A stretch of 40,810 nt of DNA from UHGV virus genome UHGV-0204427; one strand, given 5' to 3'. Below the pieces are notes generated by a model that searched no databases, was not told the DNA's origin, and saw nothing but the letters and a program-made list of their open reading frames with translations. Positions 10,340 through 32,010 of this stretch are shown one piece after another (position 1 is the stretch's first letter; each line of letters begins with the position of its first letter). Made by a program: the position numbers and the translations under genes. This DNA comes from a virus.

Positions 10340-10466
10340 TTGTGGGTATGAGATGCCGGTGTGGTACGGGCCGGATGCGGTGTGCCACGGCCTGCAGCTC
10401 AAATGCAAGAAGTGTAAGAAGGAATTCAAGCCCGAAATAAAGTGGGGCAAACAGATAGAGCAATAG
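10317..10466 (+). CDS. 49-aa zinc-ribbon peptide (CPNC…C…CKKC), Mu Com-like architecture; weak RBS
   Basis: Hand translation gives MMKVKCPNCGYEMPVWYGPDAVCHGLQLKCKKCKKEFKPEIKWGKQIEQ. It fills the otherwise empty 150-nt gap before the TMP. Confidence 0.3.
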   Translation: MMKVKCPNCGYEMPVWYGPDAVCHGLQLKCKKCKKEFKPEIKWGKQIEQ

Positions 10467-10492
10467 TGCCATAGTGCCTGCTTCGAAGTGAG

Positions 10493-14062: not shown

Positions 14063-14066
14063 CAAC

Positions 14067-16882: not shown

Positions 16883-17795
16883 TATCAGTAAAGAGATTAA
16901 TGACTTCCGGAAGGCCGTGAAAGGCAAGGATGTCCGTGGCAGTATGATTTCGCTGGCAGAGAAGGTCAATGAAGAGGTTGAAACCAATACAGCCCATGTA
17001 GATGAGGCGGTGGACACAGCCAACGGAGCAAGTCAGACAGCTAACCAGACATCAAAGGATGCGCAGAAAGCCATCACAGAAGCCAATATAACCCTACAGG
17101 CCGCCAATGCAGCCAAGGAGTCGGCACAAGAGTCCTCTATGGCTGCGAGTGTATCAGCCGCCGCAGCTGCGGATTCGGAAGGAGCAGCAGGAGAAAGTGC
17201 GGCATCTGCCGCGGCAAGTGCAAAAGCAGCGGAAGATATAGCGGCGGGGTTAGGCGGATTTGACGGGACGGCCACATCCGTCAAGGCAACTGATACGCAG
17301 GGGCTTGTCGTGGCTGCCGGAGCGGACAGTAATGCCCAGGCCCTGCTGGATGCGCTGGCCCATAAGGTTGCACTGGAGCTGGTAAGCAATACTGCCCTTA
17401 CCACGAAATTGGCGGATTATGTAGCAAAGACAGACATCGTGCAGGTGGAGTCCACAGCTACAAATAAGGTCCCATCCAGCGCGTACCTTAAGCAGGTAAA
17501 AGATAGCATAGATAGCAATTTATCTAATGCAAATGCAGATATTAACCCGCTTAAATCCAATTATGTTGATAATATGGATAACAATATCGTTAATAAGGTC
17601 AATATTGTGTTATGGAACTCTGATACTGCAAGCACTCCATTTAAAACAGGGAATACCATCTATGGCAATGGTTTTTGTATTACTTACAGTTCTGGTGACC
17701 AGTGGCTATGCCAGTTAGCTATGGCCGTAGGCGATCCAAACCTGTTTACACGCTATAGACGCGAGGGAGTATGGAGTGGATGGACTACCAAATGA
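16875..17795 (+). CDS. tail fibre / receptor-binding protein with Ala/Ser-rich coiled stalk and distinct C-terminal head
   Basis: Low-complexity 'AAAADSEGAAGESAASAAASAKAAEDIAAG' stalk. Position after Tal. The C-terminal ~90 aa is lower in GC. Confidence 0.5.
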   Translation: MADISKEINDFRKAVKGKDVRGSMISLAEKVNEEVETNTAHVDEAVDTANGASQTANQTSKDAQKAITEANITLQAANAAKESAQESSMAASVSAAAAADSEGAAGESAASAAASAKAAEDIAAGLGGFDGTATSVKATDTQGLVVAAGADSNAQALLDALAHKVALELVSNTALTTKLADYVAKTDIVQVESTATNKVPSSAYLKQVKDSIDSNLSNANADINPLKSNYVDNMDNNIVNKVNIVLWNSDTASTPFKTGNTIYGNGFCITYSSGDQWLCQLAMAVGDPNLFTRYRREGVWSGWTTK

Positions 17796-17842
17796 TTATA
17801 TGATTATATTTGAGTTGAAGAGAAAATAAGGGGGTGTCATGA

Positions 17843-18067
17843 ATGAATACTTTTTTTATAAAGCATCATAAAAAGATTGATGCATATTGCATGACAGCCA
17901 TTTTATATTTTACAATGATCTTAGTTATGATTTCTGTAACCTCTTTTATTAAAAATGAAGGCGTTAGAGTAGCTATAGTGCTTATAGCCCCTATTATTTT
18001 TTCTCGTAAAAGATACAGGGTAAAAATCAATTTATATATACATCGTGTGTTCCGATTGGAAGAATAG
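17843..18067 (+). CDS. small membrane protein (2 TM) in AT-rich island
   Basis: RBS AAGGGGGTG. Hydrophobic 'AILYFTMILVMISV' and 'VAIVLIAPIIF'. Followed by a strong terminator. Confidence 0.45.
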   Translation: MNTFFIKHHKKIDAYCMTAILYFTMILVMISVTSFIKNEGVRVAIVLIAPIIFSRKRYRVKINLYIHRVFRLEE

Positions 18068-18089
18068 AAAAACTATTCTTCTTTTTTTT
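18059..18089 (+). terminator. rho-independent terminator GAAGAATAG-aaaaa-CTATTCTTC + T8
   Basis: Perfect 9-bp stem plus TTTTTTTT. Confidence 0.6.
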
Positions 18090-18217
18090 CTGTATTTTCT
18101 AATTCGTCAATTTGATTAGATTGTCCATTATAGTGAAAAAGTACATCGGAAATCAATTCGGGATTTTTTACATCTAATTCTTTGATGAGAGTTGCTATTT
18201 GTGATAAGAAGAAAATG

Positions 18218-18244
18218 AATCGTAACCTGCAAATCAGGTCTCTA
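18218..18244. repeat. 27-bp direct repeat copy 1 (aatCGTAACCTGCAAATCAGGTCTCTA)
   Basis: Matches 18728-18754 at 24/27 positions. Flanks a ~480-bp AT-rich segment. Confidence 0.6.
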
Positions 18245-18293
18245 TTTTGAATAATATAGGAGCTGTCCTTGAAACAGCAGAAAGAGAGGAATT

Positions 18294-18419
18294 ATGAAAC
18301 CTATAATGATTACAATTAAGGTAGGAAGTTCAGATAAAATAAAAGAAACATTAGAAGTGATTGAGGTAATAAAAAAGAGTCACCCCAATGCTGAGTTTTG
18401 CATTGAGGTGATTGTGTAG
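18294..18419 (+). CDS. 41-aa hypothetical peptide (MKPIMITIKVGSSDKIKETLEVIEVIKKSHPNAEFCIEVIV)
   Basis: RBS AGAGAGGA. Overlaps the terminator hairpin of the convergent minus-strand gene, so may be spurious. Confidence 0.2.
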   Translation: MKPIMITIKVGSSDKIKETLEVIEVIKKSHPNAEFCIEVIV

Positions 18420-18421
18420 AG

Positions 18422-18643
18422 TTACTCTTTCCTTATTTCGATGACACGCAATCCGTCGCCGCGAACGGTATAAGAACCATTTTGCGTTTTCACCCACAAT
18501 GTTTTGCCTGATGGAATATTTTGTGTTAAGAGATTCTCTTCGGATACAGTTATAAGACTACTTGTTCCGTTAAAAGAGATTGATGTAACGTTATTACATT
18601 CCACAAATTTTCCATCGTCATATGTAGCGCAAATATAGTACAT
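18422..18643 (-). CDS. 73-aa hypothetical protein (beta-rich, no signal peptide) inside the direct-repeat-flanked insert
   Basis: Excellent RBS GGAAGGGGGTG 6 nt before ATG (the track start 18652 is GTG with no spacing). Minus-strand terminator hairpin plus T-run downstream at ~18370-18412. Confidence 0.5.
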   Translation of the reverse strand: MYYICATYDDGKFVECNNVTSISFNGTSSLITVSEENLLTQNIPSGKTLWVKTQNGSYTVRGDGLRVIEIRKE

Positions 18644-18727
18644 GATTTTCACCCCCTTCCTACTTGGATTTTACCATAAAGGGGGATAAAAAAACAGAGA
18701 GTAAAAGAATGAGCTTACTATTCCCAA

Positions 18728-18754
18728 AATTGTAACCTACAAATCAGGTCCCTA
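18728..18754. repeat. 27-bp direct repeat copy 2 (aatTGTAACCTACAAATCAGGTCCCTA)
   Basis: See copy 1. Confidence 0.6.
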
Positions 18755-18817
18755 AACCAGGGGCCTATTTTATTGCCTGGCGTCCGGCATGTCCGGCCCG
18801 GCGGAAAGGAAAAATGT

Positions 18818-19228
18818 ATGAATGAAAAGATTGTATTGAAAAACGGGAAGGAGTACCCGCTGGTCATCGGCGGCACATCCTCCACGTCCAGCACTCTACG
18901 GCTTATCTTTCAGACAGCGGAGCCGCTGGAGGATATCGTGGCCGTGTTTGAGGACACCGCTGCCACAGAGCAGATTAAGACTGTCAACGAGGATGGCAGC
19001 ACATTGCTGATATATGATGGCTATACGGTGCTGGATAACCCAAAGAGTATTGATGACGACTATCTCATTACCCCGGAGCAGTACGGGGAGGACGGTGCGG
19101 TCACCGCGGAGGCTGTATATGGCCGTGTGGCGCTCCTAACGCTATCTCAGCCGGGTGTGGCCGCACAGGTGGAAAAGAATACGGCTGACATTGATTACGT
19201 GGCTATTATGGCCGGTATTGATTTATAG
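18818..19228 (+). CDS. hypothetical phage protein in XkdW-like position (high GC)
   Basis: 136 aa. Immediately upstream of the XkdX-like gene and the holin. Confidence 0.4.
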   Translation: MNEKIVLKNGKEYPLVIGGTSSTSSTLRLIFQTAEPLEDIVAVFEDTAATEQIKTVNEDGSTLLIYDGYTVLDNPKSIDDDYLITPEQYGEDGAVTAEAVYGRVALLTLSQPGVAAQVEKNTADIDYVAIMAGIDL

Positions 19229-19383: not shown

Positions 19384-19842
19384 ATGAGGTATATGAAAAT
19401 GGATAAGGTGAAAGCAGCGTTTGTTGCAGCATTTAGCATGATTTTTGGATGGCTGGGAATTTTGGCAGTTCCCGTGCTCATACTGGCCGGATTGAATTTC
19501 ACAGACTACATAACCGGCATCCTGGCATCAAAACGGCGCAATGAGCTGGTGACTAGTGACAAGGGACTGTGGGGTATCGTCAAGAAGATAGGAATGTGGA
19601 TATTGGTGGGATTGGGATGGGCTATGGACGTGTTGATTAATTACGCCGGCCAGTATGTAGGACTGTCTATTAAACTGCCCTTCGTGGTTGCTACCATCGT
19701 GGCAGTATGGCTTATATGTAATGAGATAATCAGCATCCTGGAAAATCTGCTGGATATTGGCGTGGCCATGCCGCCATTTTTAATGCCGCTGGCCAAGATG
19801 ATTAAGGGGCAGGTTGAAGATAAGACAAAGATGGATGCCTGA
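19384..19842 (+). CDS. holin (phage_holin_4_1 / TcdE-like, 3 TM); start probably ATG 19393
   Basis: Three hydrophobic helices with a charged C-terminus. Immediately upstream of the endolysin. Confidence 0.8.
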   Translation: MRYMKMDKVKAAFVAAFSMIFGWLGILAVPVLILAGLNFTDYITGILASKRRNELVTSDKGLWGIVKKIGMWILVGLGWAMDVLINYAGQYVGLSIKLPFVVATIVAVWLICNEIISILENLLDIGVAMPPFLMPLAKMIKGQVEDKTKMDA

Positions 19843-19885
19843 GATGAGGTGGTCCGCATATCTCCCGCCGCGGGGTTAAGCGGGT

Positions 19886-19916
19886 AGTTGCGATATCGCA
19901 ACTTGTGACGTCACAA
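19886..19916. promoter_or_regulatory. two abutting perfect palindromes: AGTTGCGATATCGCAACT (19886-19903) and TTGTGACGTCACAA (19903-19916)
   Basis: Read directly. The first contains the same 14-mer found at 5139-5152. Confidence 0.5.
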
Positions 19917-19924
19917 CTTTTCAT

Positions 19925-19957
19925 GGCTCAGGGATGCCCCTGGGCCTTATTTTTTTG
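19925..19957 (+). terminator. terminator-like hairpin GGCTCAGGG-atgc-CCCTGGGCC + TTATTTTTTT abutting the endolysin RBS
   Basis: 9-bp stem (1 mismatch) plus T7. The RBS GGAGG follows within 4 nt. Confidence 0.5.
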
Positions 19958-19972
19958 ATGGAGGAAAACACT

Positions 19973-20746
19973 ATGAGTAAAACATCAGCAGGACTAATTC
20001 AGCACTGTAAGGACAAGCTGGGCACCCCTTACGTCTACGGCGCCAAGGGCGAGATACTGACGCAGGCCATCCTGGACCGCCTGACCCGGGAGAACCCAGG
20101 CACATACACATCTACCTACAAAGCCAAAGCTGCCAAGTACATAGGCCAGCGCTGCACGGACTGCAGCGGCCTCATCAGCTGGTACACCGGGCGCATCCGT
20201 GGTAGTTACAACTACCATGACACAGCCGTGGAGCGCGTGGGTATCGACCATCTGGACGAGTCCATGGTCGGTTGGGCGCTCTGGAAGCCGGGCCACATCG
20301 GGGTGTACATAGGTGATGGCTGGTGTATTGAGGCCAAGGGCATCAACTACGGCACCATCAAGTCCAGAGTGGCGGCCACACCCTGGCAGAAGGTCCTCAA
20401 GCTCTGCGACATCGACTATACCCCGGTACCAGTGACATACACCCAGGGCTTTCAGCCGGCCGCAGACGGCCAGCGCTGGTGGTATCAGTTTACAGACGGC
20501 AGCTATGCGGCCAATGGCTGGTACTGGCTCAGGGAGGCCACGGACGGCACCTGTGGTTGGTATCTGTTTGACAGCGAGGGCTACATGATGACCGGCTACC
20601 AGGTGGACCCCGCTGGCGAGGCATTTTTACTTTGCCCGGTTAAGGGCAGCGACGAGGGCAAGTGCATGATTACGGATGCCAGGGGTGTGCTGCGGATTGC
20701 GGAGGAGTACGACATGGTAAATCGGCGGTATGTGTTTGCGTGGTAG
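19973..20746 (+). CDS. endolysin: NlpC/P60 (CHAP-like) peptidase + C-terminal cell-wall-binding repeats
   Basis: Catalytic Cys in 'RCTDCSGLISWY'. His in 'GHIGVYIGDG'. C-terminal aromatic repeats 'WWYQFTDGSYAANGWYWL…GWYLFDSEGYMMTGYQ'. RBS GGAGG before ATG 19973. Confidence 0.8.
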   Translation: MSKTSAGLIQHCKDKLGTPYVYGAKGEILTQAILDRLTRENPGTYTSTYKAKAAKYIGQRCTDCSGLISWYTGRIRGSYNYHDTAVERVGIDHLDESMVGWALWKPGHIGVYIGDGWCIEAKGINYGTIKSRVAATPWQKVLKLCDIDYTPVPVTYTQGFQPAADGQRWWYQFTDGSYAANGWYWLREATDGTCGWYLFDSEGYMMTGYQVDPAGEAFLLCPVKGSDEGKCMITDARGVLRIAEEYDMVNRRYVFAW

Positions 20747-20899
20747 ACTGTGAAAATGATGTTATAGTAATTAAAACTGGTGGAATAGGATGCTTACTAA
20801 TAAAGCAAGGACAATGGGGGAGGGGAGGCAAATATAATATGCGGGCAAGTAATTCATATTATGTATATAGATAAGGTTAATAAAATTTCCAATAACGGA

Positions 20900-20928
20900 T
20901 TGACAAATTAACCTAAATGGGTTAAAAT
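20900..20928 (+). promoter_or_regulatory. σ70 promoter TTGACA-17-TAAAAT with inverted repeat TTAACC-N6-GGTTAA (20908-20925) in the spacer; second IR GTGAC-N9-GTCAC at 20935-20953
   Basis: Consensus hexamers and spacing read directly. Lies 44 nt upstream of the XRE gene. Confidence 0.55.
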
Positions 20929-20971
20929 AAATTTGTGACCCATGGAATGTCACTAGAAGGAGGATTGCACG

Positions 20972-21322
20972 ATGGTAAATAACTTCGGAAAGTTTTGCCG
21001 CAAGCTGAGAATTGATAATGGAGAATTATTAGCGGATATGGCTAAAAAGCTCGGGGTTTCATCTGCATTTTTGTCAAAGGTAGAAAATGGAAATAAGAAA
21101 CCACCGAAGGAATGGCAAGAGGAAATTGTTTCATTGTATCAGTTGGATAATCGTAAAGCGGAGGAATTAGCTGATTGTATGTTTGATGCATTGAATTTCC
21201 ATAGTATTGATATGTCTGGGTATTCAGATGGAAATCGGGATATGCTTCTGTCCTTCGCTAGAAAGCTTAACACCATGGATGACAGCAAAATAGACCAGTT
21301 TAGAAAAATGATTGAGAAGTAA
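20972..21322 (+). CDS. XRE-family helix-turn-helix regulator
   Basis: 'FGKFCRKLRIDNGELLADMAKKLGVSSAFLSKVENGNKKP' is a classic HTH_XRE. Low GC. Confidence 0.75.
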   Translation: MVNNFGKFCRKLRIDNGELLADMAKKLGVSSAFLSKVENGNKKPPKEWQEEIVSLYQLDNRKAEELADCMFDALNFHSIDMSGYSDGNRDMLLSFARKLNTMDDSKIDQFRKMIEK

Positions 21323-21340
21323 CTTGGAGGTGCTGCAATA

Positions 21341-21856
21341 TTGAATATTCGTGCTACAGCGTTATCAAGAGTATCGATAAGAGAGTTGACGACAGAGGTT
21401 AGAAAAATTTGTGGGCTGCAGGAGCAGTTGTATTTTCCAATAGTAGAATTCATTGAGTGGGTCTTAGGCGACCCCAATAATGATTTCGATTATGAAATAG
21501 TCCCGATATCTGAGATGAAAGATACATATGGAACAACAAATACCGCAAGTAATATTATGCGAATAAGGGAAGATGTATATGAAGGTGCCGTTAAAGGAAA
21601 CGCAAGAGATAGATTCACTCTGTGCCATGAGTTGGGGCATTTCTTATTGCATCAGCCTAAATTGATAAGTTATGCAAGAGGTAATGTCCCGGTATACTGT
21701 CAGCCAGAATGGCAAGCCAACACATTTGCAGCAGAACTGATGGCGCCTTATCATTTAGTGAAAAACATGTCGGCAAATGAAATTGCACAGAAATGCGGAA
21801 TGTCATTGACTGCAGCAAATATTCAATATAAAACGTATCATAAGTTTGATGTTTAG
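21341..21856 (+). CDS. ImmA/IrrE-family zinc metallopeptidase (COG2856)
   Basis: HEXXH in 'LCHELGHFLLH'. Typical size of 171 aa. Directly downstream of the XRE partner. Confidence 0.75.
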   Translation: MNIRATALSRVSIRELTTEVRKICGLQEQLYFPIVEFIEWVLGDPNNDFDYEIVPISEMKDTYGTTNTASNIMRIREDVYEGAVKGNARDRFTLCHELGHFLLHQPKLISYARGNVPVYCQPEWQANTFAAELMAPYHLVKNMSANEIAQKCGMSLTAANIQYKTYHKFDV

Positions 21857-22015
21857 GAGAAATCCTTTGCATAGAAAAAACCAAGTGCATTACACTTGGT
21901 CGCTTGTTGAACGTGTTACCACTATTCAACTGATTTTATAATCTTATTTGGCGATATGATTATAACATAGTGGGAGCTCTTTTGCAAGTGGAAACTTGAG
22001 AAAGGAGGGCAAACT

Positions 22016-22138
22016 ATGTGGATTTTTAGAGCATGGATTACCACGAAAGATGGTGAAAAGATTTACGCAAAAGACCATGGGAAAAGAGCCTTTAGATTCT
22101 GGGTTGGTCCAGGACCTGCGCCAGTTAAGAGTAACTAA
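22016..22138 (+). CDS. 40-aa basic peptide (MWIFRAWITTKDGEKIYAKDHGKRAFRFWVGPGPAPVKSN)
   Basis: Strong RBS AAGGAGGG 6 nt upstream. Shares a 'KDG-x-[KR]-[IV]' motif with the next peptide. Confidence 0.4.
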   Translation: MWIFRAWITTKDGEKIYAKDHGKRAFRFWVGPGPAPVKSN

Positions 22139-22203
22139 TTGACTAAAAGAGGTGCTTTTATCAGTTGGAGTGTCTCTGGTTTTATATGGAAGGAGCCAGA
22201 GCG

Positions 22204-22323
22204 ATGGCAAAGACTAGGACAAGCGTGAGAGGACAGCAACACAAGAAGATTGTAGTAGTGAAATCATATGTAAGGAAAGATGGAAGAAGGGTGGGAGAGC
22301 ATCGGCGCTCAACTCCAAATTGA
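22204..22323 (+). CDS. 39-aa basic peptide (MAKTRTSVRGQQHKKIVVVKSYVRKDGRRVGEHRRSTPN)
   Basis: Strong RBS GGAAGGAG. Followed by a strong terminator. Confidence 0.4.
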   Translation: MAKTRTSVRGQQHKKIVVVKSYVRKDGRRVGEHRRSTPN

Positions 22324-22331
22324 TTCATTTT

Positions 22332-22357
22332 GAGGCAGGAAATTCCTGCCTCTTTTT
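22332..22357 (+). terminator. rho-independent terminator GAGGCAGG-aaatt-CCTGCCTC + TTTTT
   Basis: Perfect 8-bp stem plus T-run. Confidence 0.65.
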
Positions 22358-22506
22358 ATAGTAGCGTGTGTAGAAGGCGGGTACCGGATAAACCGGGCCC
22401 GCCTAAGCATTATTTATATGGAGAATCGAATGATTTAAATAAGGAAGAAATAATTTGCAAGTTTGTAAACTCTATGCACATGGTATTAGAAAACTTGTAA
22501 ATTAGA

Positions 22507-23874
22507 TTATAGCTGCTTTAGCTTGATATTCACATTATCATCATCAATTATGATGCGGTCTATAATCATAGTCAGGCAGGCCCTTTTTTCATCCAAGCTT
22601 CCTGCATCAGAAAGCGACATCAAGGTATCTCTCGCGGTTATCATTTCAGCAAGAGTTGTTACCGGCACATTTTTGGGTTTTGATATATTCAGTAGTGCTT
22701 CCTTCTCTTTATTAAGCGCATCCATTTTTTCCTGTATGGTTTCGATTGGGATTCCGCTGACTTGATACAGGTCTATCAGTTTTCCAATCTGCTTATCTAT
22801 CTCATTTAGGCGGATTGAATAATCTGTGACCGGGACCGGAACAGGGTGTCCACTCTTTAATTTAGAAAAGTCTAAACGCATTATGTAATCTAACACCAGT
22901 CTGTCTAATTCCTCTATCTTCCATTTTTTATTCTTGCAGTTGGGGTCAACAATGTACTTTTTATCTCCCTTGGTACGACTATAACAAGAATAATTACCAT
23001 GCTCACCGTGGAACCGTGCCCCACACTTACCACAATAGACGAGGCTTGAAAGAAGGGTGCTCGCCTTAAACGGAGACCGCTTGAAGGTATCAGAGGCCCT
23101 CCTGGAGCTGTTAAACAGGTCCTGTACCTGCCGGAATGTTTCTTCGGATATGATTGGTTGATGATTGCCTTGATAGGCTACCCCCTTAAACTTTACTTTT
23201 CCTATATACAGTTCGTTTTTAAGGACATTCCGGACTAAGACCTCACTGCTCCATCCACCATATTTTTGTTGCATATACTGCCAACAGTTGTGTATGGAAT
23301 ACCCCTTTAAAAACCGATTATACAAATCCTTGACCTGTATGGCCTCATAGTCATTTATTATGAGCTCCCCGTCAATATAGTCATAGCCGGTTGGTGCGTT
23401 GCCACCCCCATGAAAATATCCATTCTTGGCTCTGCCGATGCGTCCCATGGTAAAACGCTCCGTAATCTGGTCTTTCTCCAGCTGGGCAAAGACCGACAGT
23501 ATTCCAATCATGGCCCGGCCAAATGGGGTGGATGTATCAAAATTCTCATTCACAGAAACAAAATCCACATTCTTGGCCAGAAAACAATCCTCAATCAACA
23601 TGAGAGTATCCTTCTGGCTTCTGGATAAGCGGTCAAGCTTGTAAACAATGACAGAATCTATCAATCCTTTGTCGATGTCTTGGAGCATCTGCTGCAGGGC
23701 AGGCCTATTAACGTTTCCGCCGGAATAGCCGCCGTCGGTATATATCTTGACTATCTGAATATCTTTTGCTTTGCAGTATGCCTTCAAACGGTCAGTCTGT
23801 TCCTCTATACTATAGTTTTCTAACTGATTGTCCGTAGATACACGGACATAACATGCGCCTTTAATCATATTCAT
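22507..23874 (-). CDS. large serine recombinase (phage integrase type: resolvase catalytic domain + recombinase domain + zinc ribbon + coiled coil); start possibly the 3rd codon ATG at 23868
   Basis: 'YVRVSTDNQ' catalytic Ser motif. 'SRSQKDTL'. Cys pairs 'CGKCGARF…C'. 455 aa. Confidence 0.9.
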   Translation of the reverse strand: MNMIKGACYVRVSTDNQLENYSIEEQTDRLKAYCKAKDIQIVKIYTDGGYSGGNVNRPALQQMLQDIDKGLIDSVIVYKLDRLSRSQKDTLMLIEDCFLAKNVDFVSVNENFDTSTPFGRAMIGILSVFAQLEKDQITERFTMGRIGRAKNGYFHGGGNAPTGYDYIDGELIINDYEAIQVKDLYNRFLKGYSIHNCWQYMQQKYGGWSSEVLVRNVLKNELYIGKVKFKGVAYQGNHQPIISEETFRQVQDLFNSSRRASDTFKRSPFKASTLLSSLVYCGKCGARFHGEHGNYSCYSRTKGDKKYIVDPNCKNKKWKIEELDRLVLDYIMRLDFSKLKSGHPVPVPVTDYSIRLNEIDKQIGKLIDLYQVSGIPIETIQEKMDALNKEKEALLNISKPKNVPVTTLAEMITARDTLMSLSDAGSLDEKRACLTMIIDRIIIDDDNVNIKLKQL

Positions 23875-24013
23875 CTCTCCTCATACTTAACTATACTCTT
23901 CGGTTGACGTAAAATTACACATATGGTTGCCCGGTGTCCGGAAAGATGATATACTATGTCTTGTACTCAACATTTCTTATCATGGGAACCGTGACACCCT
24001 TGGTAAGGCTGGG

Positions 24014-24050
24014 CCCCTGTGTTTTCTGCACAGGGGTTCTTGCGTTATTT
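24014..24050 (+). terminator. hairpin CCCCTGTG-ttttctg-CACAGGGG followed by TTCTTGCGTTATTT; orphan + strand terminator or att-associated structure
   Basis: 8-bp perfect stem. No + strand gene lies upstream. Confidence 0.35.
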
Positions 24051-24245
24051 AAATAAATCAAAAAGACTAAATGAAGTCTTTTTATACACTTTGTTATATG
24101 CGGCCTTTTTAGGATTCTTTATCCACCCCATACCCTTCTTCCCATATCCGGGTATTAATGCTTTTTTTACCGCTCTTTTTGCTCGTCCGGTGGTCCTGGC
24201 CTTTAGGGATTTCATGGGGCTAATTTTGCGCAATCCAAATTTCAT
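24045..24245 (-). CDS. 66-aa lysine-rich small protein (MKFGLRKISPMKSLKARTTGRAKRAVKKALIPGYGKKGMGWIKNPKKAAYNKVYKKTSF…), conserved prophage hypothetical
   Basis: RBS GGAGGGG 8 nt before ATG. Highly basic. I recognise this peptide type as recurrent next to integrases in Firmicutes prophages. Confidence 0.5.
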   Translation of the reverse strand: MKFGLRKISPMKSLKARTTGRAKRAVKKALIPGYGKKGMGWIKNPKKAAYNKVYKKTSFSLFDLFK

Positions 24246-24389
24246 GATGTCCCCTCCTTGTGAAATAGTATTTTCTATATATTGATACTTGAAACAGAAC
24301 ATACGTTCTGATATAATAAAAATCAAACCTAAGTTTGTGTATGACCTTCACTGCTACTGCGGATACTATTCGCATGGAGGTACACGCTC

Positions 24390-24608
24390 ATGGTTCCACG
24401 ATTCACAATTGAATATCATCTTTATGAGTTCCGAACAAAAGCAGGCCTTACAGACCGTGGTCTTTCGGAGCTATCAGGAATCAGTAAAACCCAAATCAAC
24501 CAGATTGAAGATGGCAAGGCCAATCCCACATTACGCACCATATGCATCCTTTCCCTTGCATTGGACGTTAAACCAGCTGACCTGTTTTCAATCCGCATAA
24601 CCCCCTAA
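24390..24608 (+). CDS. small XRE/Cro-type HTH protein
   Basis: 'FRTKAGLTDRGLSELSGISKTQINQIEDGKANP' is HTH_XRE. Confidence 0.55.
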   Translation: MVPRFTIEYHLYEFRTKAGLTDRGLSELSGISKTQINQIEDGKANPTLRTICILSLALDVKPADLFSIRITP

Positions 24609-24899
24609 ACGGGGGTACATAATAGACGCTTGTCGATATTTGTCCGTTATAGCGGACAAATGCGGAAACAGCAGGTAAATAATGGAAATATAACGTTCAT
24701 ACAGTATAACCTAGTCGATAAACTGACTATATGGTTTCGTAGAGACAAAAGGGAAAGGGTGGTACATATTATGAGTAATCAAGAATACTGGAATGCTATT
24801 TCTGAAAAGGTTAAGGAAATCAATAACAATGCTTTACTTAGAAGAATTTACCTTTTTATCCTTGCCCTACAGGGAGGCGCCCACTGAGGTGTCTCCCTG

Positions 24900-25280
24900 T
24901 CATTTAATTCCCAGCCATGCTTTCATGAAATCTTCTAAAATTTTCAATTTTTCTGGGTCTGTTTCTGCTAATAAGTTTATACCATTTCGTACAAATTCAT
25001 TTTCAGTTGTACTCAGTTTTCCCAAATTTAATGAAAATCGGTCATCAGCAGATATTTGAGTAAAGATGTTATCATCGCCGCCTTCACCAGTGAGAAGCCA
25101 GGTTTCATTTACATGAAATGAAACGCAGATATCAGATATTACTCTATTTGTAACAGCGACTTTTCCGGTTTCTATATTTCCGAGATTTGAACGGGATATC
25201 CTAATGGATTCAGCAAATTCTTCTTGAGTCTTATGCAAAATTTCTTTACGCAGAAATCGTATTCGTTCATATGTGTTCAT
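24900..25280 (-). CDS. cI-like prophage repressor (HTH_XRE, no peptidase domain), 126 aa
   Basis: 'IRFLRKEILHKTQEEFAESIRISRSNLGNIETGK'. RBS AAGGAG. Divergent from the early promoter. Confidence 0.7.
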   Translation of the reverse strand: MNTYERIRFLRKEILHKTQEEFAESIRISRSNLGNIETGKVAVTNRVISDICVSFHVNETWLLTGEGGDDNIFTQISADDRFSLNLGKLSTTENEFVRNGINLLAETDPEKLKILEDFMKAWLGIK

Positions 25281-25310
25281 GCGTGATTCTCCTTTCTTGT
25301 ATATAAGCAA

Positions 25311-25339
25311 ATTATAGCATAAAGAAAAATGCTTGTAAA
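25311..25339 (-). promoter_or_regulatory. leftward σ70 promoter (TTTACA-17-TATAAT on the minus strand) for the repressor gene
   Basis: Hexamers ATTATA at 25311-16 and TGTAAA at 25334-39 on the + strand. 17-nt spacer. Confidence 0.5.
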
Positions 25340-25363
25340 GGACAAAAAGAGTAAAAGATATGA

Positions 25364-25398
25364 TTGACAAGGACAAAATTGTGGTATATAATGTCCTT
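25364..25398 (+). promoter_or_regulatory. rightward early promoter TTGACA-17-TATAAT with operator half-sites AAGGACA (25338, 25369 direct) and TGTCCTT (25392 inverted)
   Basis: Perfect consensus hexamers. AAGGACAAAA is repeated twice and forms an inverted repeat across the -10. Confidence 0.6.
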
Positions 25399-25428
25399 AA
25401 CAAGCAAAAGAGAGAGGGGTGATGAAAG

Positions 25429-25599
25429 ATGCAAGATACCAATTTAATTCAATTAACAAATGACACATTAAAAAATATCCTTATTATGGCACCGATGTTG
25501 GATGAAGCGGGTCAAAATAAGGTGTTTGGTTTGATGTGTGGCCTAATTCCTAATGTACCTAAAAGTGGAACTGATATTAAGGATAGAAAGAGCAGCTAA
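25429..25599 (+). CDS. 56-aa first early-operon protein (Cro position, no obvious HTH)
   Basis: RBS AGAGAGGGG. Divergent from the repressor. Confidence 0.35.
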   Translation: MQDTNLIQLTNDTLKNILIMAPMLDEAGQNKVFGLMCGLIPNVPKSGTDIKDRKSS

Positions 25600-25644
25600 G
25601 GTACTGCACATCGGCAAGTGAATAGGAAGAGGTGAGAGAAAGTA

Positions 25645-25854
25645 ATGTTACTTATTTTATTGTCTGTCCTGGTTTCAACGATTACCGCAGCCATCGTCAC
25701 GATTAAGATAACGGCCGCGGTAAAAAGAGAACTAATGACCTACGTCGAAGAAATGTGTGACCTGAATATTGAACAATCACAAAAAATAAAAAACTATGCT
25801 CTGAAAACGGTTGAAATGCTTGTTCGCAATATCAATCAAGACAAGCCTGTATAA
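25645..25854 (+). CDS. 69-aa small membrane protein
   Basis: Hydrophobic N-terminus 'LLILLSVLVSTITAAIVTI'. RBS GAGGTGAG. Confidence 0.4.
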   Translation: MLLILLSVLVSTITAAIVTIKITAAVKRELMTYVEEMCDLNIEQSQKIKNYALKTVEMLVRNINQDKPV

Positions 25855-26590
25855 GGGCTGTACCGAAAGGCGTTAATCCACATATTTTTCCAACAATTTC
25901 AGAATGAAGATATTTCCCCATTTTGATACGTTCTTCTTCGCACTGTTTATAGAAATCTGAATTTTTAAATGGAGAGTCATCAGCGGGGTGAACGAGAGCG
26001 TCATCATCAAATGCAAGTATGCCTAACCGCATCAGTGATGAAAGTGAAAAAGATATATACCTTGCTTCGTGCTGGTTCGGATAAGTATCAAAAGTATAGG
26101 GAACTTTGTTATAAAAGTCATTCTCGCTATTATTGAAATATGTGTATGTAATCAATCGTTCTGGTTTGTTGCTGACATAGTATTTTAAAATTTTAGCATC
26201 ATAAGGGCTCATTTGTTTTAGTGTCTCTGAGAAAGATGGATGTATGAGTTCCTTATAGTCACTATGGCATGAACGTGCTATTAGGTTAGCAAACAGATTT
26301 CTAAGTTCTTCGGAATTGATGCAAGAATCTACATTATCTAATGCAAGCATTATTGTTTGATAATCAGGTTCTATAAGCTTTTCAGATGGAATTTGTTCTA
26401 TACAGAGTTTTAATCGCGCCTCCAATTCAATTAAGCCGTATTTTTCATAGAGACGCCTTTTCTCAGCTTTATAGGATATTGAGCCAAACTTAAGATAGAT
26501 GGCGTCTTTGATGAGAGTTCCAATAGACATTGCTGGTTCGTTAGTAAGGTTTTTAATTGCATTATCAACACAGTTAGGCATGAGTTCCAT
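25832..26590 (-). CDS. Abi-alpha-like (DUF4393) abortive-infection/exclusion candidate, ~252 aa
   Basis: 'IKNLTNEPAMSIGTLI…RNLFANLIARSCHSDYKELIHPSFSETLKQMSPYDAKILKY' recalls the DUF4393 core. Minus-strand gene in the lysogeny region. Confidence 0.5.
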   Translation of the reverse strand: MELMPNCVDNAIKNLTNEPAMSIGTLIKDAIYLKFGSISYKAEKRRLYEKYGLIELEARLKLCIEQIPSEKLIEPDYQTIMLALDNVDSCINSEELRNLFANLIARSCHSDYKELIHPSFSETLKQMSPYDAKILKYYVSNKPERLITYTYFNNSENDFYNKVPYTFDTYPNQHEARYISFSLSSLMRLGILAFDDDALVHPADDSPFKNSDFYKQCEEERIKMGKYLHSEIVGKICGLTPFGTALIQACLD

Positions 26591-26729
26591 AATAATATTC
26601 CCTTCACTAAATACTCGGCGCTGCAACGCCTGTAAGTACAGTATAGGTCAGGGGGAGGAAAAAGACAAGACGGACAACGTAAGAAGTACAACCAGTACCA
26701 CATACAATTTACCAGAGAGGGGTGGTGAT

Positions 26730-26882
26730 ATGGCAAACGTAATCATAACAACCTATGACGGGAAAGTCTATACAAATCCGGAGGACATTAAAGTAGAAAG
26801 AAACGAGAATACGGAAATGTTTTACCGGTTTTTGGAACAGTACCGTGATGAAAGAATTCAGAAGCGAGAGGACACCGCCTAA
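26730..26882 (+). CDS. 50-aa hypothetical
   Basis: RBS AGAGGGGTGGTG. ATG 26730. Confidence 0.3.
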   Translation: MANVIITTYDGKVYTNPEDIKVERNENTEMFYRFLEQYRDERIQKREDTA

Positions 26883-26903
26883 GGGCGGCCCTGTAGGACA
26901 AGC

Positions 26904-27101
26904 ATGGAAAGGAGTGACAAGCCAATGAGAGCTAAGACAATAGCAGAACATGCCATTCGTACATGGATGAGCAATCAATTTCCTGGCATAGATGCCAGAT
27001 TGGATTTTACTGGAGCGCGCGAGGCAATCATTACAGATGTCAATGGGGACCATTTACAAGTGGTATATGATGGCGGAGAGGTAAGAATGGTCGATGCGTA
27101 A
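26904..27101 (+). CDS. hypothetical early protein (65 aa; alternative start 26925)
   Basis: ORF with plausible RBS. Confidence 0.35.
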   Translation: MERSDKPMRAKTIAEHAIRTWMSNQFPGIDARLDFTGAREAIITDVNGDHLQVVYDGGEVRMVDA

Positions 27102-27189
27102 GTATGGTGGCCTCGGTAACACACTGAGGCTGGTATATGACAACGATACCAAGTCTGTCTATGACAAAGAGTAGGAGGGTGTTAGGACA

Positions 27190-27405
27190 ATGAAAAAGAA
27201 GGATGACTTAGAGGCCATTGTGGACCTGCTACATGAATGGTGTGCGGAATATGGAGAGGAATATGCTTCCGCCTGCATTATTAACGGTATAGGACGCGCA
27301 ATCAATGACCCCGCTTTACCTGCTGATGCATGGGTTAGTGTTTTGAAAGATTATAAAGAGATGGACCCCAGCGGCGGCAACCGCAAGAGGCCCATGGACA
27401 AATAG
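27190..27405 (+). CDS. hypothetical acidic early protein (71 aa)
   Basis: RBS GGAGGG. Confidence 0.4.
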   Translation: MKKKDDLEAIVDLLHEWCAEYGEEYASACIINGIGRAINDPALPADAWVSVLKDYKEMDPSGGNRKRPMDK

Positions 27406-27469
27406 TTTAGCACATTCTTATTGTAAGGGATTATGGAGGAAAAATCAACCATAAAAGGAGGCACGCCGC

Positions 27470-27607
27470 ATGAGCTATTATATCCGATGCCCTCATTGTG
27501 GGGCCTATCTTGACCCGGGGGAGAAATGCTCCTGCAGGGAAGAGAATACAACGGAAACCATGAATATGAAAACGGAGGAAAACGAAGATGACAAACATGA
27601 ACATTAA
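27470..27607 (+). CDS. 45-aa zinc-ribbon peptide (CPHC…CSC)
   Basis: Strong RBS AAAAGGAGG 8 nt upstream. Not in the track (<60 aa). Confidence 0.45.
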   Translation: MSYYIRCPHCGAYLDPGEKCSCREENTTETMNMKTEENEDDKHEH

Positions 27608-32006: not shown

Positions 32007-32010
32007 GCTT

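What the first reader, a model, noticed from the sequence alone, without database searches (positions are those of the whole stretch)
20880..22360. Low-GC moron between endolysin and integrase: XRE regulator + ImmA/IrrE metallopeptidase + two tiny paralogous basic peptides, with its own promoter/operator and terminator
Downstream of the lysin sits a self-contained unit. A consensus σ70 promoter (TTGACA-17-TAAAAT) has an IR (TTAACC-N6-GGTTAA) in its spacer. It drives an HTH_XRE gene and an HEXXH ImmA/IrrE protease ('HELGHFLLH'). After a hairpin come two ~40-aa highly basic peptides with strong RBSs that share a KDG-x-(K/R)-(I/V)…H..R motif, then a strong terminator. ImmR/ImmA-type pairs are proteolytic switches and also occur as COG2856-Xre toxin-antitoxin-like or defence-regulating pairs. 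Here the pair is not the prophage's main repressor, since a separate cI-like gene exists at 24900-25280. So it likely controls the adjacent small peptides or a host function. I could not place the two peptides in any family. They are the most novel-looking part of this module.
Basis: partly seen in the sequence, partly recalled or inferred. Interest (0 to 1): 0.7.

Follow-up and report, generated by a model that had tools for sequence, protein, structure and literature searches.

The report
Protease-switched prophage cassette with antisense-gated peptide
A self-contained gene cassette, common in prophages of gut Lachnospiraceae, joins a repressor/protease switch to a conserved 40-residue basic protein whose messenger RNA carries several RNA locks, including a previously unlisted antisense small RNA. 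This suggests a tightly gated, probably harmful effector of unknown target.

Summary
These are the near-consensus promoter with an inverted repeat in its spacer, an XRE repressor (20972-21322), an M78/ImmA-type metallopeptidase with an intact HEXXH…E motif (21341-21856), two small basic ORFs and a terminator.

Both small ORFs are real genes: pN/pS is 0.23 in frame and 1.3-1.8 out of frame. They are not demonstrably paralogous (hhalign probability about 1%).

- **pep1** belongs to a large unnamed family of about 40-aa proteins, with more than 1,300 clusters.
- **pep2** is a stand-alone copy of a basic repeat (V.GYTRKDGT.V..H.RS.P) that also occurs in tandem in larger proteins. It is a variable second cargo.

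The main new result concerns the 159-nt "hairpin" spacer. On the minus strand it encodes a conserved antisense small RNA of about 80 nt with its own promoter and terminator. On the plus strand it is a structured leader that sequesters the pep1 ribosome-binding site and pairs with a hairpin just after pep1. All of this is supported by covariation, and there is no Rfam match.

The small-RNA/pep1 unit is a discrete module. It is found behind two unrelated XRE-M78 pairs.

The best reading is a proteolytic derepression switch that drives a type-I-toxin-like effector. Function, trigger and toxicity are inferred, not shown.

The parts
20900..20928 (+). Cassette promoter: -35 TTGACA (20900-20905), 17-nt spacer, -10 TAAAAT (20923-20928)
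   Evidence: Matches 11 of 12 consensus positions. The -35 box is kept in 50 of 51 distinct homologous upstream regions.
20908..20925 (.). Putative XRE operator: inverted repeat TTAACC-N6-GGTTAA overlapping the promoter spacer and the -10 box
   Evidence: It is the only perfect copy in the window. The same repeat lies in the spacer in 31 of 51 homologous cassettes and upstream of the -35 in 16 of 51. Binding by XRE is inferred.
20972..21322 (+). XRE-family repressor, 116 aa: N-terminal HTH plus a C-terminal region of about 50 aa
   Evidence: HTH_31 at 5.6e-7. Full-length match to the PADLOC capH model at 1.5e-5. Best solved relatives are a 129-aa transcriptional regulator (9sf2) and an XRE-family regulator (6jq1). 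pN/pS is 0.27.
21341..21856 (+). M78 (ImmA/IrrE/CapP-type) zinc metallopeptidase, 171 aa, TTG start, no GAF domain
   Evidence: Peptidase_M78 at 1.3e-11. capP at 3.2e-17 over profile positions 63-156 of 242. Best solved relative is CapP, 7t5t. RFTLCHE..H and the downstream E-W are invariant in 47 homologues.
21872..21952 (-). Predicted antisense small RNA of about 80 nt: single-stranded 5' region, hairpin H2 (21906-21930) and terminator hairpin H1 (21879-21901) followed by a U run
   Evidence: Terminator-like site found on the minus strand only. In H1, 48 pairs are G-U only if read on the minus strand, against 1 on the plus strand. Model R1 finds it in 41 of 45 sources searched. On that alignment 91% of cells are paired, 10 of 15 pairs show compensatory change, and 0 of 500 shuffles reach the observed values. 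No Rfam match. The ends are predicted, not mapped.
21959..21987 (-). Promoter of the antisense small RNA: -35 TTGCAA (21987-21982), 17-nt spacer, extended -10 TGTTATAAT (21967-21959)
   Evidence: Matches 10 of 12 positions with a TG extension. In 38 diverse cassettes the TTG of the -35 and positions T, A, A, T of the -10 are invariant, and the TG is nearly invariant. The -10 box stays TATAAT-like even where its hairpin partner arm deviates.
21919..21973 (+). Leader hairpin H3 on the plus-strand RNA: outer stem CCACTAT/ATAGTGG (21919-21925 with 21967-21973), inner stem TTTATAAT/ATTATAAC
   Evidence: All 8 outer pairs show compensatory change and 82.5% of cells are paired. G-U pairs favour the plus strand: 20 against 3 in the inner stem and 17 against 10 in the outer stem. 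Both arms are needed, so the RNA must start upstream of 21919.
21925..21934 (+). Leader site B (TTCAACTGAT), complementary to the loop of the hairpin after pep1 (site C)
   Evidence: The longest complementary run averages 7.83 nt for cognate pairs and 4.55 nt for non-cognate pairs of a different class. At least 10 covarying sequence classes exist.
21977..22008 (+). Hairpin H4: anti-Shine-Dalgarno CTCTTTT pairs with the pep1 Shine-Dalgarno sequence (AAAGGAGG, 22001-22008)
   Evidence: 93% of cells are paired, with many U-G wobble pairs that exist only on the plus strand. The Shine-Dalgarno sequence is paired in the minimum-energy fold, z-score -5.1. Its mean unpaired probability is 0.23 across 38 cassettes.
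22016..22138 (+). pep1: conserved 40-aa basic protein, core (M)YIFRAxITTKDGxKIYAKDYGKRAFRIWVGPGPEP
   Evidence: Forty distinct coding sequences give pN/pS 0.23 in frame and 1.3-1.4 out of frame. More than 1,300 clusters at 90% identity, all about 40 aa and unnamed. No Pfam, NCBIfam or PADLOC family. Partial match to phrog_4533, of unknown function, in 28 of 42 members. The AlphaFold model is a small beta hairpin, pLDDT 72.
22148..22177 (+). Hairpin after pep1 (site C). Its loop ATCAGTTG (22160-22167) is complementary to leader site B and identical in sequence to part of the antisense small RNA
   Evidence: In cassettes without pep2 (L035-L037) the same hairpin is followed by a T run, making it a terminator.
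22204..22323 (+). pep2: 39-aa very basic protein, a variable second cargo gene
   Evidence: Twenty-eight distinct coding sequences give pN/pS 0.23 in frame and 1.4-1.8 out of frame. phrog_21154, of unknown function, matches 26 of 26 members. Residues 13-39 match a repeat present 2-7 times in larger proteins. Absent from about a third of cassettes.
22332..22357 (+). Intrinsic terminator that closes the cassette
   Evidence: Stem of 9 bp with 6 G-C pairs, loop of 3, followed by TTTTT. Homology to other prophages ends about 50 nt later, at 22402-22406.

Best explanation
The region is a mobile, self-contained prophage cassette built from two joined modules.

**Module 1: a proteolytic derepression switch.** A near-consensus promoter is autorepressed by the XRE protein, which binds the TTAACC-N6-GGTTAA operator. 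The co-transcribed ImmA-type zinc peptidase cleaves XRE when a stress signal is present. By analogy the signal is DNA damage, single-stranded DNA or RecA filaments, or infection by another phage.

**Module 2: a payload organised like a type I toxin-antitoxin locus.**
- pep1 has no conserved promoter of its own and is reached by read-through from module 1.
- Its ribosome-binding site is buried in a hairpin.
- Its leader pairs with a hairpin just 3' of the ORF.
- An antisense RNA of about 80 nt is made from a strong promoter inside the leader and covers the 5' part of that leader.

**Proposed behaviour.** In the resting lysogen, repression together with the small RNA and the RNA locks keeps pep1 off. 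After XRE is cleaved, a surge of operon transcript outruns the small RNA and pep1 is made, along with whatever cargo follows it (here pep2). pep1 is far more conserved than its regulators, so it probably acts on a conserved host component. The result would be arrest or killing of the cell (abortive infection or exclusion) or support for lytic development.

**Shown:** the genes, the coding selection, the catalytic motif, conservation of the promoter and operator, the strand-specific RNA structures, and the modular architecture.

**Inferred:** cleavage of XRE, the nature of the trigger, read-through, how the small RNA acts, and any toxicity or target of pep1.
For: **Regulator class**
- Searches place the pair in the ImmR/ImmA-CapH/CapP class.
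- The catalytic motif is invariant.
- The promoter and operator are conserved.

**Coding status**
- Both small ORFs are under purifying selection in the annotated frame only.

**Antisense small RNA**
- A terminator-like site and a promoter-like site lie on the minus strand.
- The -35 and extended -10 positions are invariant.
- G-U pairing in H1 favours the minus strand 48 to 1.
- Covariation is supported with 0 of 500 shuffles reaching the observed values.

**Plus-strand leader**
- H3 and the anti-Shine-Dalgarno hairpin H4 covary, with G-U pairing favouring the plus strand.
- The fold z-score is -5.1.
- The Shine-Dalgarno sequence is mostly paired.
- The 5'-3' complementarity that brackets pep1 covaries in at least 10 classes.

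**Coupling of the two modules**
- 73 loci carry ImmA, a 159-180 nt spacer and pep1.
- In L101 and L104 an identical pep1 and the small RNA sit behind a different XRE and M78. That XRE has no BLASTP similarity to the window's, and that M78 is 31% identical over 88 aa. The homology joint falls exactly at the small-RNA terminator.
- In L081-L084 XRE is 39% and ImmA 42% identical to the window's, yet pep1 is 82% identical and the small RNA scores 76 bits.

**Precedents**
- CapH/CapP and ImmR/ImmA are stress-triggered switches that control adjacent cargo (bioRxiv 10.1101/2022.04.27.489752).
- tisB/istR-1, hok/sok and the Bacillus subtilis prophage type I systems combine a gated small ORF, an antisense RNA and a locked ribosome-binding site (established knowledge, not tested here).
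Against: - pep1 is basic and soluble-looking, not hydrophobic like most type I toxins.
- There is no expression data. The ends of the small RNA, read-through past ImmA and any toxicity are all unverified.
- Masking the small-RNA target in silico does not change Shine-Dalgarno accessibility (0.23 against 0.19), so how the small RNA acts is unknown.
- The M78 protein lacks the GAF domain through which CapP and IrrE are thought to sense single-stranded DNA, so the trigger is open.
- In the circular phage genome the cassette lies beside attP, the integrase gene and the cI-like gene. ImmA might therefore mainly serve prophage induction.
- The covariation statistics come from related sequences. The small-RNA alignment was fitted to the model, which favours the structure.
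- One pep1 relative (L093) follows a Fic gene with no XRE/M78 on its short contig.
Confidence: 0.55

Rival explanations
1. The cassette's ImmA is chiefly the prophage's induction protease. It would cleave the main cI-like repressor (24900-25280) in trans when the host is stressed, as Listeria MpaR does. XRE would only autoregulate it, and pep1 and pep2 would be accessory passengers. This can coexist with the best explanation.
For: - The cI-like repressor has an HTH but no peptidase domain, and no protease gene lies next to it. The same holds for cassette-bearing phages L095 (181 aa) and L100/L104 (152 aa).
- ImmA was the only M78 peptidase among the roughly 19 window ORFs scanned against Pfam in 19384-34473. 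The structural-gene half (1-19000) and 34500-40810 were not scanned.
- In the circular genome the cassette lies directly next to attP, the integrase gene and the cI-like gene.
- MpaR cleaves the CI-like repressors of other prophages that lack their own protease (PMC6872733).
Against: - XRE and the cI-like protein share no similarity outside the HTH, so no shared cleavage motif is visible.
- The identical cassette sits in prophages with different backbones and integration sites.
- In L081-L084 it lies upstream of the terminase genes, far from any lysogeny module.
- This reading does not explain the elaborate, strongly conserved RNA gating of pep1, or why pep1 is kept when the XRE/M78 pair is swapped.
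Confidence: 0.2
2. pep1 is a small regulator of the phage life cycle, such as an antirepressor or another lytic-switch factor, and is not a toxin. The antisense RNA would limit its synthesis, as the sar RNA limits Ant in the arc-ant operon of phage P22.
For: - The layout matches: repressor gene(s), an intercistronic antisense RNA with its own promoter and terminator, then a small effector gene. The P22 immI layout is established knowledge.
- In some phages the cassette lies at the early/late junction, upstream of terS.
Against: - pep1 is 63-89% identical across phages whose repressors, integrases and lysins differ. An antirepressor would be expected to co-diversify with its repressor.
- pep1 gives no hit in 50,697 deposited phage genomes.
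Confidence: 0.12
3. The XRE/COG2856 pair is a stand-alone toxin-antitoxin-like or defence-regulating pair. The small ORFs are unrelated morons that merely sit downstream, transcribed from promoters of their own.
For: - COG2856-Xre pairs have been proposed as toxin-antitoxin-like modules (PMC2701414).
- pep2 does occur alone in other settings.
- A pep1 relative follows a Fic gene in L093.
Against: - The spacer length (159-180 nt) and its architecture are conserved in 43 distinct cassettes.
- No conserved plus-strand promoter for pep1 was found.
- The plus-strand hairpin H3 requires RNA that starts upstream of the spacer.
- Two unrelated XRE-M78 pairs are joined to the same small-RNA/pep1 unit.
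Confidence: 0.08

Closest known systems
ImmR/ImmA (Bacillus subtilis ICEBs1, phage phi105) and Listeria MpaR
   Same: An XRE-type HTH repressor and an adjacent, co-transcribed COG2856/M78 metallopeptidase of about 170 aa without a GAF domain, on a mobile element, with an autoregulated promoter.
   Different: Here the pair does not sit beside the integrase and main repressor genes in the prophage. A separate cI-like repressor exists. The operon continues into an antisense-gated small-protein gene. Cleavage was not tested.
CapH/CapP (regulators of CBASS and other defence systems) and DdrO/IrrE
   Same: The best model and structure matches are capH at 1.5e-5, capP at 3.2e-17, and PDB entries 7t5t (CapP), 9sf2 and 6jq1. 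The shared logic is a stress-activated protease that removes a repressor so that adjacent cargo is expressed.
   Different: The peptidase lacks the C-terminal GAF domain; only profile positions 63-156 of 242 match. The cargo is co-directional and in the same operon, not divergent. The cargo is one or two proteins of about 40 aa, not a known defence system.
Type I toxin-antitoxin loci (tisB/istR-1, hok/sok, aapA1/IsoA1, Bacillus subtilis prophage bsrG/SR4)
   Same: A small ORF, a cis-encoded antisense RNA with its own promoter and terminator, a sequestered ribosome-binding site and a 5'-3' long-distance pairing around the ORF. As with tisB, the RNA acts far upstream of the ribosome-binding site and transcription is under a stress repressor. 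The prophage location matches the Bacillus subtilis examples.
   Different: pep1 is basic and not hydrophobic. No toxin promoter of its own was found. Transcription depends on an upstream XRE/M78 operon, not LexA. Toxicity is untested. The RNA and the protein match no known family.
Phage P22 immI region (arc - sar antisense RNA - ant)
   Same: A repressor gene, then an intercistronic antisense small RNA transcribed against the operon, then the gated effector gene.
   Different: The sar RNA covers the ant ribosome-binding site, whereas this RNA ends about 50 nt upstream of the pep1 ribosome-binding site. Ant is a large antirepressor. There is no sequence relationship.
Basic beta-hairpin repeat V.V.GYTRKDGT.V..H.RS.P in larger proteins; phrog_21154; PBCV basic adaptor domain (PF08789)
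   Same: Residues 13-39 of pep2 match this repeat, which occurs 2-7 times in proteins of 160-1,300 aa, including Ser/Thr kinases and proteins with signal peptides. All pep2 homologues match phrog_21154.
   Different: pep2 is a single free-standing copy. Pfam PF08789 does not detect pep2, and in P0184 it matches a different stretch. The function of the repeat is unknown. PBCV-1 proteins annotated with the adaptor domain were found associated with DNA (PMC3281028), which is only a hint.

Membership tests
XRE repressor + M78/COG2856 protease switch (ImmR/ImmA, DdrO/IrrE, CapH/CapP) | Adjacent, co-directional HTH-XRE and Peptidase_M78 genes | tested here: met
   HTH_31 at 5.6e-7 and Peptidase_M78 at 1.3e-11, 18 nt apart. 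The arrangement is the same in more than 70 loci.
XRE repressor + M78/COG2856 protease switch (ImmR/ImmA, DdrO/IrrE, CapH/CapP) | Intact zinc-binding HEXXH motif plus a downstream Glu | tested here: met
   HELGH and the downstream P-E-W are present. H, E, H and E are invariant in 47 distinct homologues.
XRE repressor + M78/COG2856 protease switch (ImmR/ImmA, DdrO/IrrE, CapH/CapP) | The repressor binds a palindromic operator at its own promoter (autoregulation) | tested here: inconclusive
   A conserved inverted repeat overlaps the promoter. Binding itself cannot be tested here.
XRE repressor + M78/COG2856 protease switch (ImmR/ImmA, DdrO/IrrE, CapH/CapP) | The protease cleaves the repressor's C-terminal oligomerisation domain on a stress signal | not testable with these tools
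   XRE has a C-terminal region of about 50 aa and matches the capH model over its full length.
CapP/IrrE subfamily | C-terminal GAF-like sensor domain | tested here: not met
   The protein is 171 aa. The capP model matches only positions 63-156 of 242. The alignment to PDB 7t5t covers residues 78-165.
Type I toxin-antitoxin system | Small ORF (under about 60 aa) that is under selection as coding sequence | tested here: met
   40 aa, with pN/pS 0.23 in frame and above 1.3 out of frame.
Type I toxin-antitoxin system | Cis-encoded antisense RNA with its own promoter and terminator that overlaps the toxin mRNA | tested here: met
   Met at the level of sequence and covariation only. No expression data.
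Type I toxin-antitoxin system | Translationally locked toxin mRNA (sequestered Shine-Dalgarno sequence, 5'-3' long-distance pairing) | tested here: met
   The H4 anti-Shine-Dalgarno hairpin is 93% paired. The Shine-Dalgarno unpaired probability is 0.23. The B/C complementarity covaries.
Type I toxin-antitoxin system | Hydrophobic, membrane-targeting toxin (typical but not universal) | tested here: not met
   pep1 has net charge about +5, no hydrophobic segment and a predicted beta hairpin.
Type I toxin-antitoxin system | The ORF product is toxic and the RNA neutralises it | not testable with these tools
   This needs expression experiments.
pep1 and pep2 as paralogues | Significant profile-profile similarity | tested here: not met
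   hhalign probability 1%, E-value 0.055, 7 aligned columns.
PBCV basic adaptor domain (PF08789), for pep2 | Match to the Pfam model | tested here: not met
   No hit for pep2 or for any of its 26 homologues at E-values up to 10.
Known RNA families (Rfam 15) | Match of the spacer or small RNA to a curated covariance model | tested here: not met
   No match at gathering thresholds. Only chance-level matches at E-values up to 10.

The most novel reading that the evidence does not exclude
The cassette is a new kind of stress- or infection-triggered effector system. A repressor/protease sensor releases a non-membrane, 40-residue basic protein that is otherwise held off by an antisense RNA and a locked mRNA. 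That protein disables a conserved host function, which makes this a soluble 'type I-like' toxin used by Lachnospiraceae prophages for abortive infection, exclusion or host takeover. The small RNA and pep1 would then be founding members of new RNA and protein families.
Probability: 0.3. Interest if true: 0.8.

Novelty: new variant of a known kind. Interest (0 to 1): 0.64.

Why it matters
The cassette is very common in prophages of human-gut Lachnospiraceae. The identical ImmA is indexed in 405 blocks of the assembly collection, and pep1 has more than 1,300 clusters at 90% identity. Despite this, pep1 is unnamed in the libraries and collections searched here, its RNA elements are not in Rfam, and it is absent from 50,697 deposited phage genomes.

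It joins two well-studied control principles that I did not find described together in the six full-text searches run here. One is proteolytic derepression of the ImmA/CapP type. The other is RNA gating of the type I toxin-antitoxin kind.

If the payload is an effector, it would give a tractable model for how gut prophages turn a stress signal into a host-directed action. It would also widen the known range of cargo controlled by XRE/M78 sensors. The covarying RNA structures allow direct tests by compensatory mutation.

Tried and rejected
**Family searches for the peptides**
- Pfam, NCBIfam and PADLOC gave no family for pep1 or pep2. The only leads were weak and below threshold: Imm17 (9 of 42 members, best E-value 0.0037) and DUF903.
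- PDB sequence searches with the peptide profiles found nothing meaningful.
- AlphaFold models are small beta hairpins (pLDDT 72-73). Foldseek against the PDB gave only chance-level hits, all with E-values above 3.

**Other searches with no result**
- pep1/pep2 paralogy: rejected.
- Nucleotide search of the cassette against deposited phages: no match. pep1 tblastn against the same collection: no match.
- Rfam: nothing.
- A LexA (Cheo) box in the cassette: none.
- Other copies of the XRE operator in the phage, such as at the lysogeny switch: none.
- A cleavage motif shared between XRE and the cI-like repressor: none detectable.

**Mechanistic ideas that failed**
- A simple switch in which small-RNA binding opens the pep1 Shine-Dalgarno sequence: not predicted.
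- A plus-strand promoter for pep1 inside the spacer. The left TATAAT arm has no usable -35 box and lies downstream of sequences that must be in the RNA, so I treat it as a hairpin arm.
- pep1 as a recombination directionality factor. I rejected this because near-identical pep1 occurs with both serine and tyrosine integrases.

**A technical note**
- RNAalifold missed hairpin H2 because of alignment register. I recovered it with a covariance-model alignment.


Full report
**1.

- **Promoter and operator.** TTGACA (20900-20905), 17 nt, TAAAAT (20923-20928) matches 11 of 12 consensus positions. The inverted repeat TTAACC-N6-GGTTAA (20908-20925) lies in the spacer and has no other perfect copy in the 40.8-kb window.
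- **XRE.** 20972-21322, 116 aa, HTH_31 at 5.6e-7.
- **ImmA.** 21341-21856, 171 aa, Peptidase_M78 at 1.3e-11, with HELGH.
- **Small ORFs.** pep1 at 22016-22138 (40 aa) and pep2 at 22204-22323 (39 aa). Both are basic and each has a strong Shine-Dalgarno sequence.
- **Terminator.** 22332-22352 followed by a T run.
- **Composition.** GC is 0.36-0.39 in the cassette and 0.55-0.60 in the lysin gene.
- **Flanks.** A holin and an NlpC/P60-like lysin lie upstream. A large serine recombinase lies downstream on the other strand.

The window is a whole temperate phage genome, circularly permuted. Beyond the integrase come a cI-like repressor, an Abi_alpha gene, a DUF2800 nuclease, an SSB, a family A DNA polymerase and a VapE-like protein.

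**2. The cassette is a widespread mobile module**

- The identical ImmA protein is indexed in 405 blocks of the assembly collection.
- In ten integrated prophages, homology to the window ends at 22402-22406. Different host genes follow: a GntR regulator, recA, feoB, Ku/ligase, VanY and others.
- In more distant phages, nucleotide homology starts only at about 20875-20886.
- Scans with ImmA found 61 further loci. These lie in Lachnospiraceae genomes (Bariatricus, Sellimonas catena, Blautia schinkii, Acetatifactor muris, Roseburia porci, Eubacterium plexicaudatum) and in IMG/VR contigs.
- Seventy-three loci have ImmA followed by pep1.
- The cassette follows lysins of several unrelated types. In L081-L084 it sits instead just upstream of terS, terL and the portal gene.

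**3. The regulator pair**

- The pair matches the PADLOC capH model (1.5e-5, full length) and the capP model (3.2e-17).
- The best solved relatives are a 129-aa transcriptional regulator (9sf2) and an XRE-family regulator (6jq1) for XRE, and CapP (7t5t) for ImmA.
- RFTLCHE..H and a downstream E-W are invariant in 47 distinct homologues.
- The peptidase has no GAF domain; only capP profile positions 63-156 of 242 match. In size it resembles ImmA.
- Of 51 distinct upstream regions, 50 keep the -35 box. The TTAACC/GGTTAA repeat lies in the spacer in 31 and upstream of the -35 in 16.
- No LexA box is present.
- That the protease cleaves XRE after a stress signal is inferred from the family (bioRxiv 10.1101/2022.04.27.489752; PMC6872733). 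It is not shown here.

**4. The two small ORFs are genes but not demonstrable paralogues**

| Gene | Distinct coding sequences | pN/pS in frame | pN/pS in the other two frames |
|---|---|---|---|
| pep1 | 40 | 0.23 | 1.3-1.4 |
| pep2 | 28 | 0.23 | 1.4-1.8 |
| XRE | 38 | 0.27 | not computed |
| ImmA | 18 | 0.22 | not computed |

Synonymous differences are saturated (pS about 0.75).

- **Paralogy.** Profile-profile comparison gives 1% probability over seven columns. The shared KDG turn is only a motif.
- **pep1.**
  - Its core is MYIFRAxITTKDGxKIYAKDYGKRAFRIWVGPGPEP.
  - It has more than 1,300 clusters at 90% identity, all about 40 aa and all unnamed.
  - It has no Pfam, NCBIfam or PADLOC family.
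  - It has a partial match to phrog_4533, of unknown function.
  - It has no hit in 50,697 deposited phage genomes.
- **pep2.**
  - It matches phrog_21154, of unknown function, in 26 of 26 members.
  - An exhaustive profile search shows that residues 13-39 are one copy of a basic repeat, V.V.GYTRKDGT.V..H.RS.P. The repeat occurs 2-7 times in larger proteins, among them Ser/Thr kinases and proteins with signal peptides.
  - It is missing from about a third of cassettes. There it is replaced by DUF1653, by a small membrane ORF, or by nothing.
  - It also occurs alone in a non-prophage setting. In four Lacticaseibacillus phages it occurs alone and is not annotated.
  - pep2 is therefore variable cargo.
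- **Structure.** Predictions (pLDDT 72-73) and fold searches were uninformative.

**5. The spacer between ImmA and pep1 is the most interesting part**

Its length is held at 159-180 nt in 43 distinct cassettes, and it is densely conserved.

*Minus strand*
- The promoter is -35 TTGCAA (21987-21982), 17 nt, then an extended -10 TGTTATAAT (21967-21959). The TTG and the T, A, A, T positions of the -10 are invariant in 38 sequences.
- Downstream come hairpin H2 (21906-21930) and hairpin H1 (21879-21901) with a U run.
- In H1, 48 cells are G-U only when read on the minus strand, against 1 on the plus strand.
- A covariance model of this RNA of about 80 nt finds it in 41 of 45 sources. On that alignment 91% of cells are paired, 10 of 15 pairs carry compensatory changes, and 0 of 500 shuffles reach the observed values. 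Controls with shifted pairing partners score far lower.

*Plus strand*
- In the long hairpin H3 (21919-21973), all eight outer pairs covary. Its G-U pairs favour the plus strand, 20 to 3 in the inner stem and 17 to 10 in the outer stem.
- Hairpin H4 pairs CTCTTTT with the pep1 Shine-Dalgarno sequence. It is 93% paired, with many plus-only U-G wobbles.
- The plus strand folds with a z-score of -5.1.

*Long-distance pairing*
- Leader site B (21925-21934) is complementary to the loop of a conserved hairpin 20-25 nt after the pep1 stop codon (22148-22177; loop 22160-22167).
- The two sites covary in at least ten sequence classes. The longest complementary run averages 7.83 nt for cognate pairs and 4.55 nt for non-cognate pairs of a different class.
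- That loop has the same sequence as part of the antisense RNA, so the two could compete for site B.

Rfam has no matching family.

**6. The modules are coupled**

- H3 needs both of its arms in one RNA, so the plus-strand RNA must begin upstream of the spacer. I found no conserved plus-strand promoter or terminator between ImmA and pep1. pep1 is therefore most simply read as the distal part of the XRE-ImmA operon. This is an inference.
- In L101 and L104 the same pep1 (identical protein) and the small RNA (71 bits) lie behind a different pair.
  - That XRE has no BLASTP similarity to the window's XRE.
  - That M78 is 31% identical over 88 aa.
  - That pair has its own consensus promoter and different operator repeats.
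  - Homology between L100 and L101 resumes exactly at ACATAGAAAAAA, the 3' end of the small-RNA gene.
- In L081-L084, XRE and ImmA are only 39% and 42% identical to the window's, yet pep1 is 82% identical.
- The small-RNA/pep1 unit is therefore a discrete module that has been joined more than once to XRE/M78 switches, and pep1 is under much tighter constraint than its regulators. This argues that its target is conserved and probably belongs to the host, and not to a phage-specific partner.

**7. Mechanism**

I propose a stress-triggered proteolytic switch that drives a payload organised like a type I toxin-antitoxin locus. Repression by XRE, the buried Shine-Dalgarno sequence, the 5'-3' lock and the antisense RNA keep pep1 off. 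Cleavage of XRE gives a surge of transcript that overcomes the small RNA.

- The nearest functional parallel, from established knowledge, is tisB/istR-1. There a stress repressor controls transcription, the antisense RNA acts far upstream of a sequestered ribosome-binding site, and the mRNA is locked.
- The nearest architectural parallel is P22 arc-sar-ant.
- How the small RNA acts is unresolved. Masking its target in silico does not open the Shine-Dalgarno sequence (0.23 against 0.19).
- pep1 is not hydrophobic, so it fails the usual type I toxin profile. Toxicity is untested.

**8. Rivals**

- **ImmA as induction protease.** The strongest rival is that ImmA is, or is also, the prophage's induction protease acting in trans on the cI-like repressor, as Listeria MpaR does (PMC6872733).
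  - In favour: the cI-like proteins of cassette-bearing phages lack a peptidase domain and have no adjacent protease gene. In the circular genome the cassette abuts attP, the integrase gene and the cI-like gene.
  - Against: no shared motif with XRE, the cassette's presence in unrelated phage backbones, and its placement upstream of terS in some phages.
  - It also leaves the gating of pep1 unexplained.
- **pep1 as antirepressor.** This is disfavoured by its conservation across phages with different repressors.
- **pep1 as recombination directionality factor.** This is disfavoured because pep1 occurs with both serine and tyrosine integrases.

**9. Limits**

All RNA evidence is comparative. The sequences are related to one another, and the small-RNA alignment was fitted to the model. 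No expression, cleavage or phenotype data exist. The ends of the small RNA are predictions.

**10. Verdict**

The regulator pair is ordinary. What is new is its fusion to an antisense-gated, mRNA-locked small-protein module, comprising a new RNA element and a new small-protein family, that is very common in gut Lachnospiraceae prophages. I rate it a new variant of a known kind.

Noticed in passing
window 22402-22506 (core candidate 22474-22484, ATGCACATGGT): The attR side of prophage L010 matches the window up to 22484. The integrase side of L085/L086 matches from 22474. L010 (attR side) and L085 (integrase side) are flanked by feoB fragments; L086 is not. The 11-bp overlap is a candidate attachment core for the serine integrase, with integration into feoB. 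Other prophages that carry the same cassette diverge earlier, at 22402-22406, and sit at other sites, so they have different integration modules.
   Followed up: partly
L101 compared with L100/L104: L101 lacks the integrase, the 302-aa gene and the cI-like (152-aa) block that L100 and L104 carry between the cassette and the early genes. It still has XRE-M78-small RNA-pep1. It may be a deletion derivative that cannot integrate or has become virulent.
   Followed up: no
L093 1476-1765: A pep1 relative (36 aa, P0017) lies 180 nt downstream of a Fic/Fic_N gene on a 3-kb contig with no XRE/M78. By eye, the spacer shows the same layout: a minus-strand terminator, TATAAT/ATTATA arms and an anti-Shine-Dalgarno stem. 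The covariance model did not detect it.
   Followed up: partly
L081 4565-4638: A phage-encoded tRNA-Met (anticodon CAT) lies between the cassette and terS in the phages where the cassette sits upstream of the packaging genes.
   Followed up: yes
L098 3501-3617, L099 3001-3117 (Lacticaseibacillus phages R24.2 and R3.3); L017 3138-3257: pep2 homologues (64-72% identical) are not annotated in four deposited Lacticaseibacillus phage genomes. In the two I inspected (R24.2, R3.3) they lie in gaps of about 300 nt, on the strand opposite to the surrounding genes. A 69%-identical copy stands alone in a region that is not a prophage.
   Followed up: partly
window 21626-21640 (LCHELGH): A cysteine directly before the HEXXH motif is invariant in all 47 ImmA homologues. 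Some CapP proteins use an internal 'cysteine switch', but whether this residue is related was not examined.
   Followed up: no
window 25832-26626 (-): An Abi_alpha (abortive infection) gene, 2.2e-33, lies in the lysogeny module next to the cI-like repressor. The phage therefore already carries one candidate defence gene.
   Followed up: no
window 24045-24326 (-): A 93-aa, extremely basic ORF lies between the integrase gene and a cro-like HTH gene. It has no Pfam match. A shorter 66-aa gene is called at the equivalent place in related prophages.
   Followed up: no
window 17600-18800: A second low-GC patch (0.30-0.40) lies just upstream of the holin and lysis genes. Related prophages have small ORFs of 41, 73 (opposite strand) and 136 aa there. 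It may be another moron.
   Followed up: no
L094-L097 4269-4499: A DUF1653 protein (76 aa) takes the place of pep2 as the second cargo gene after pep1 in one cassette lineage.
   Followed up: no
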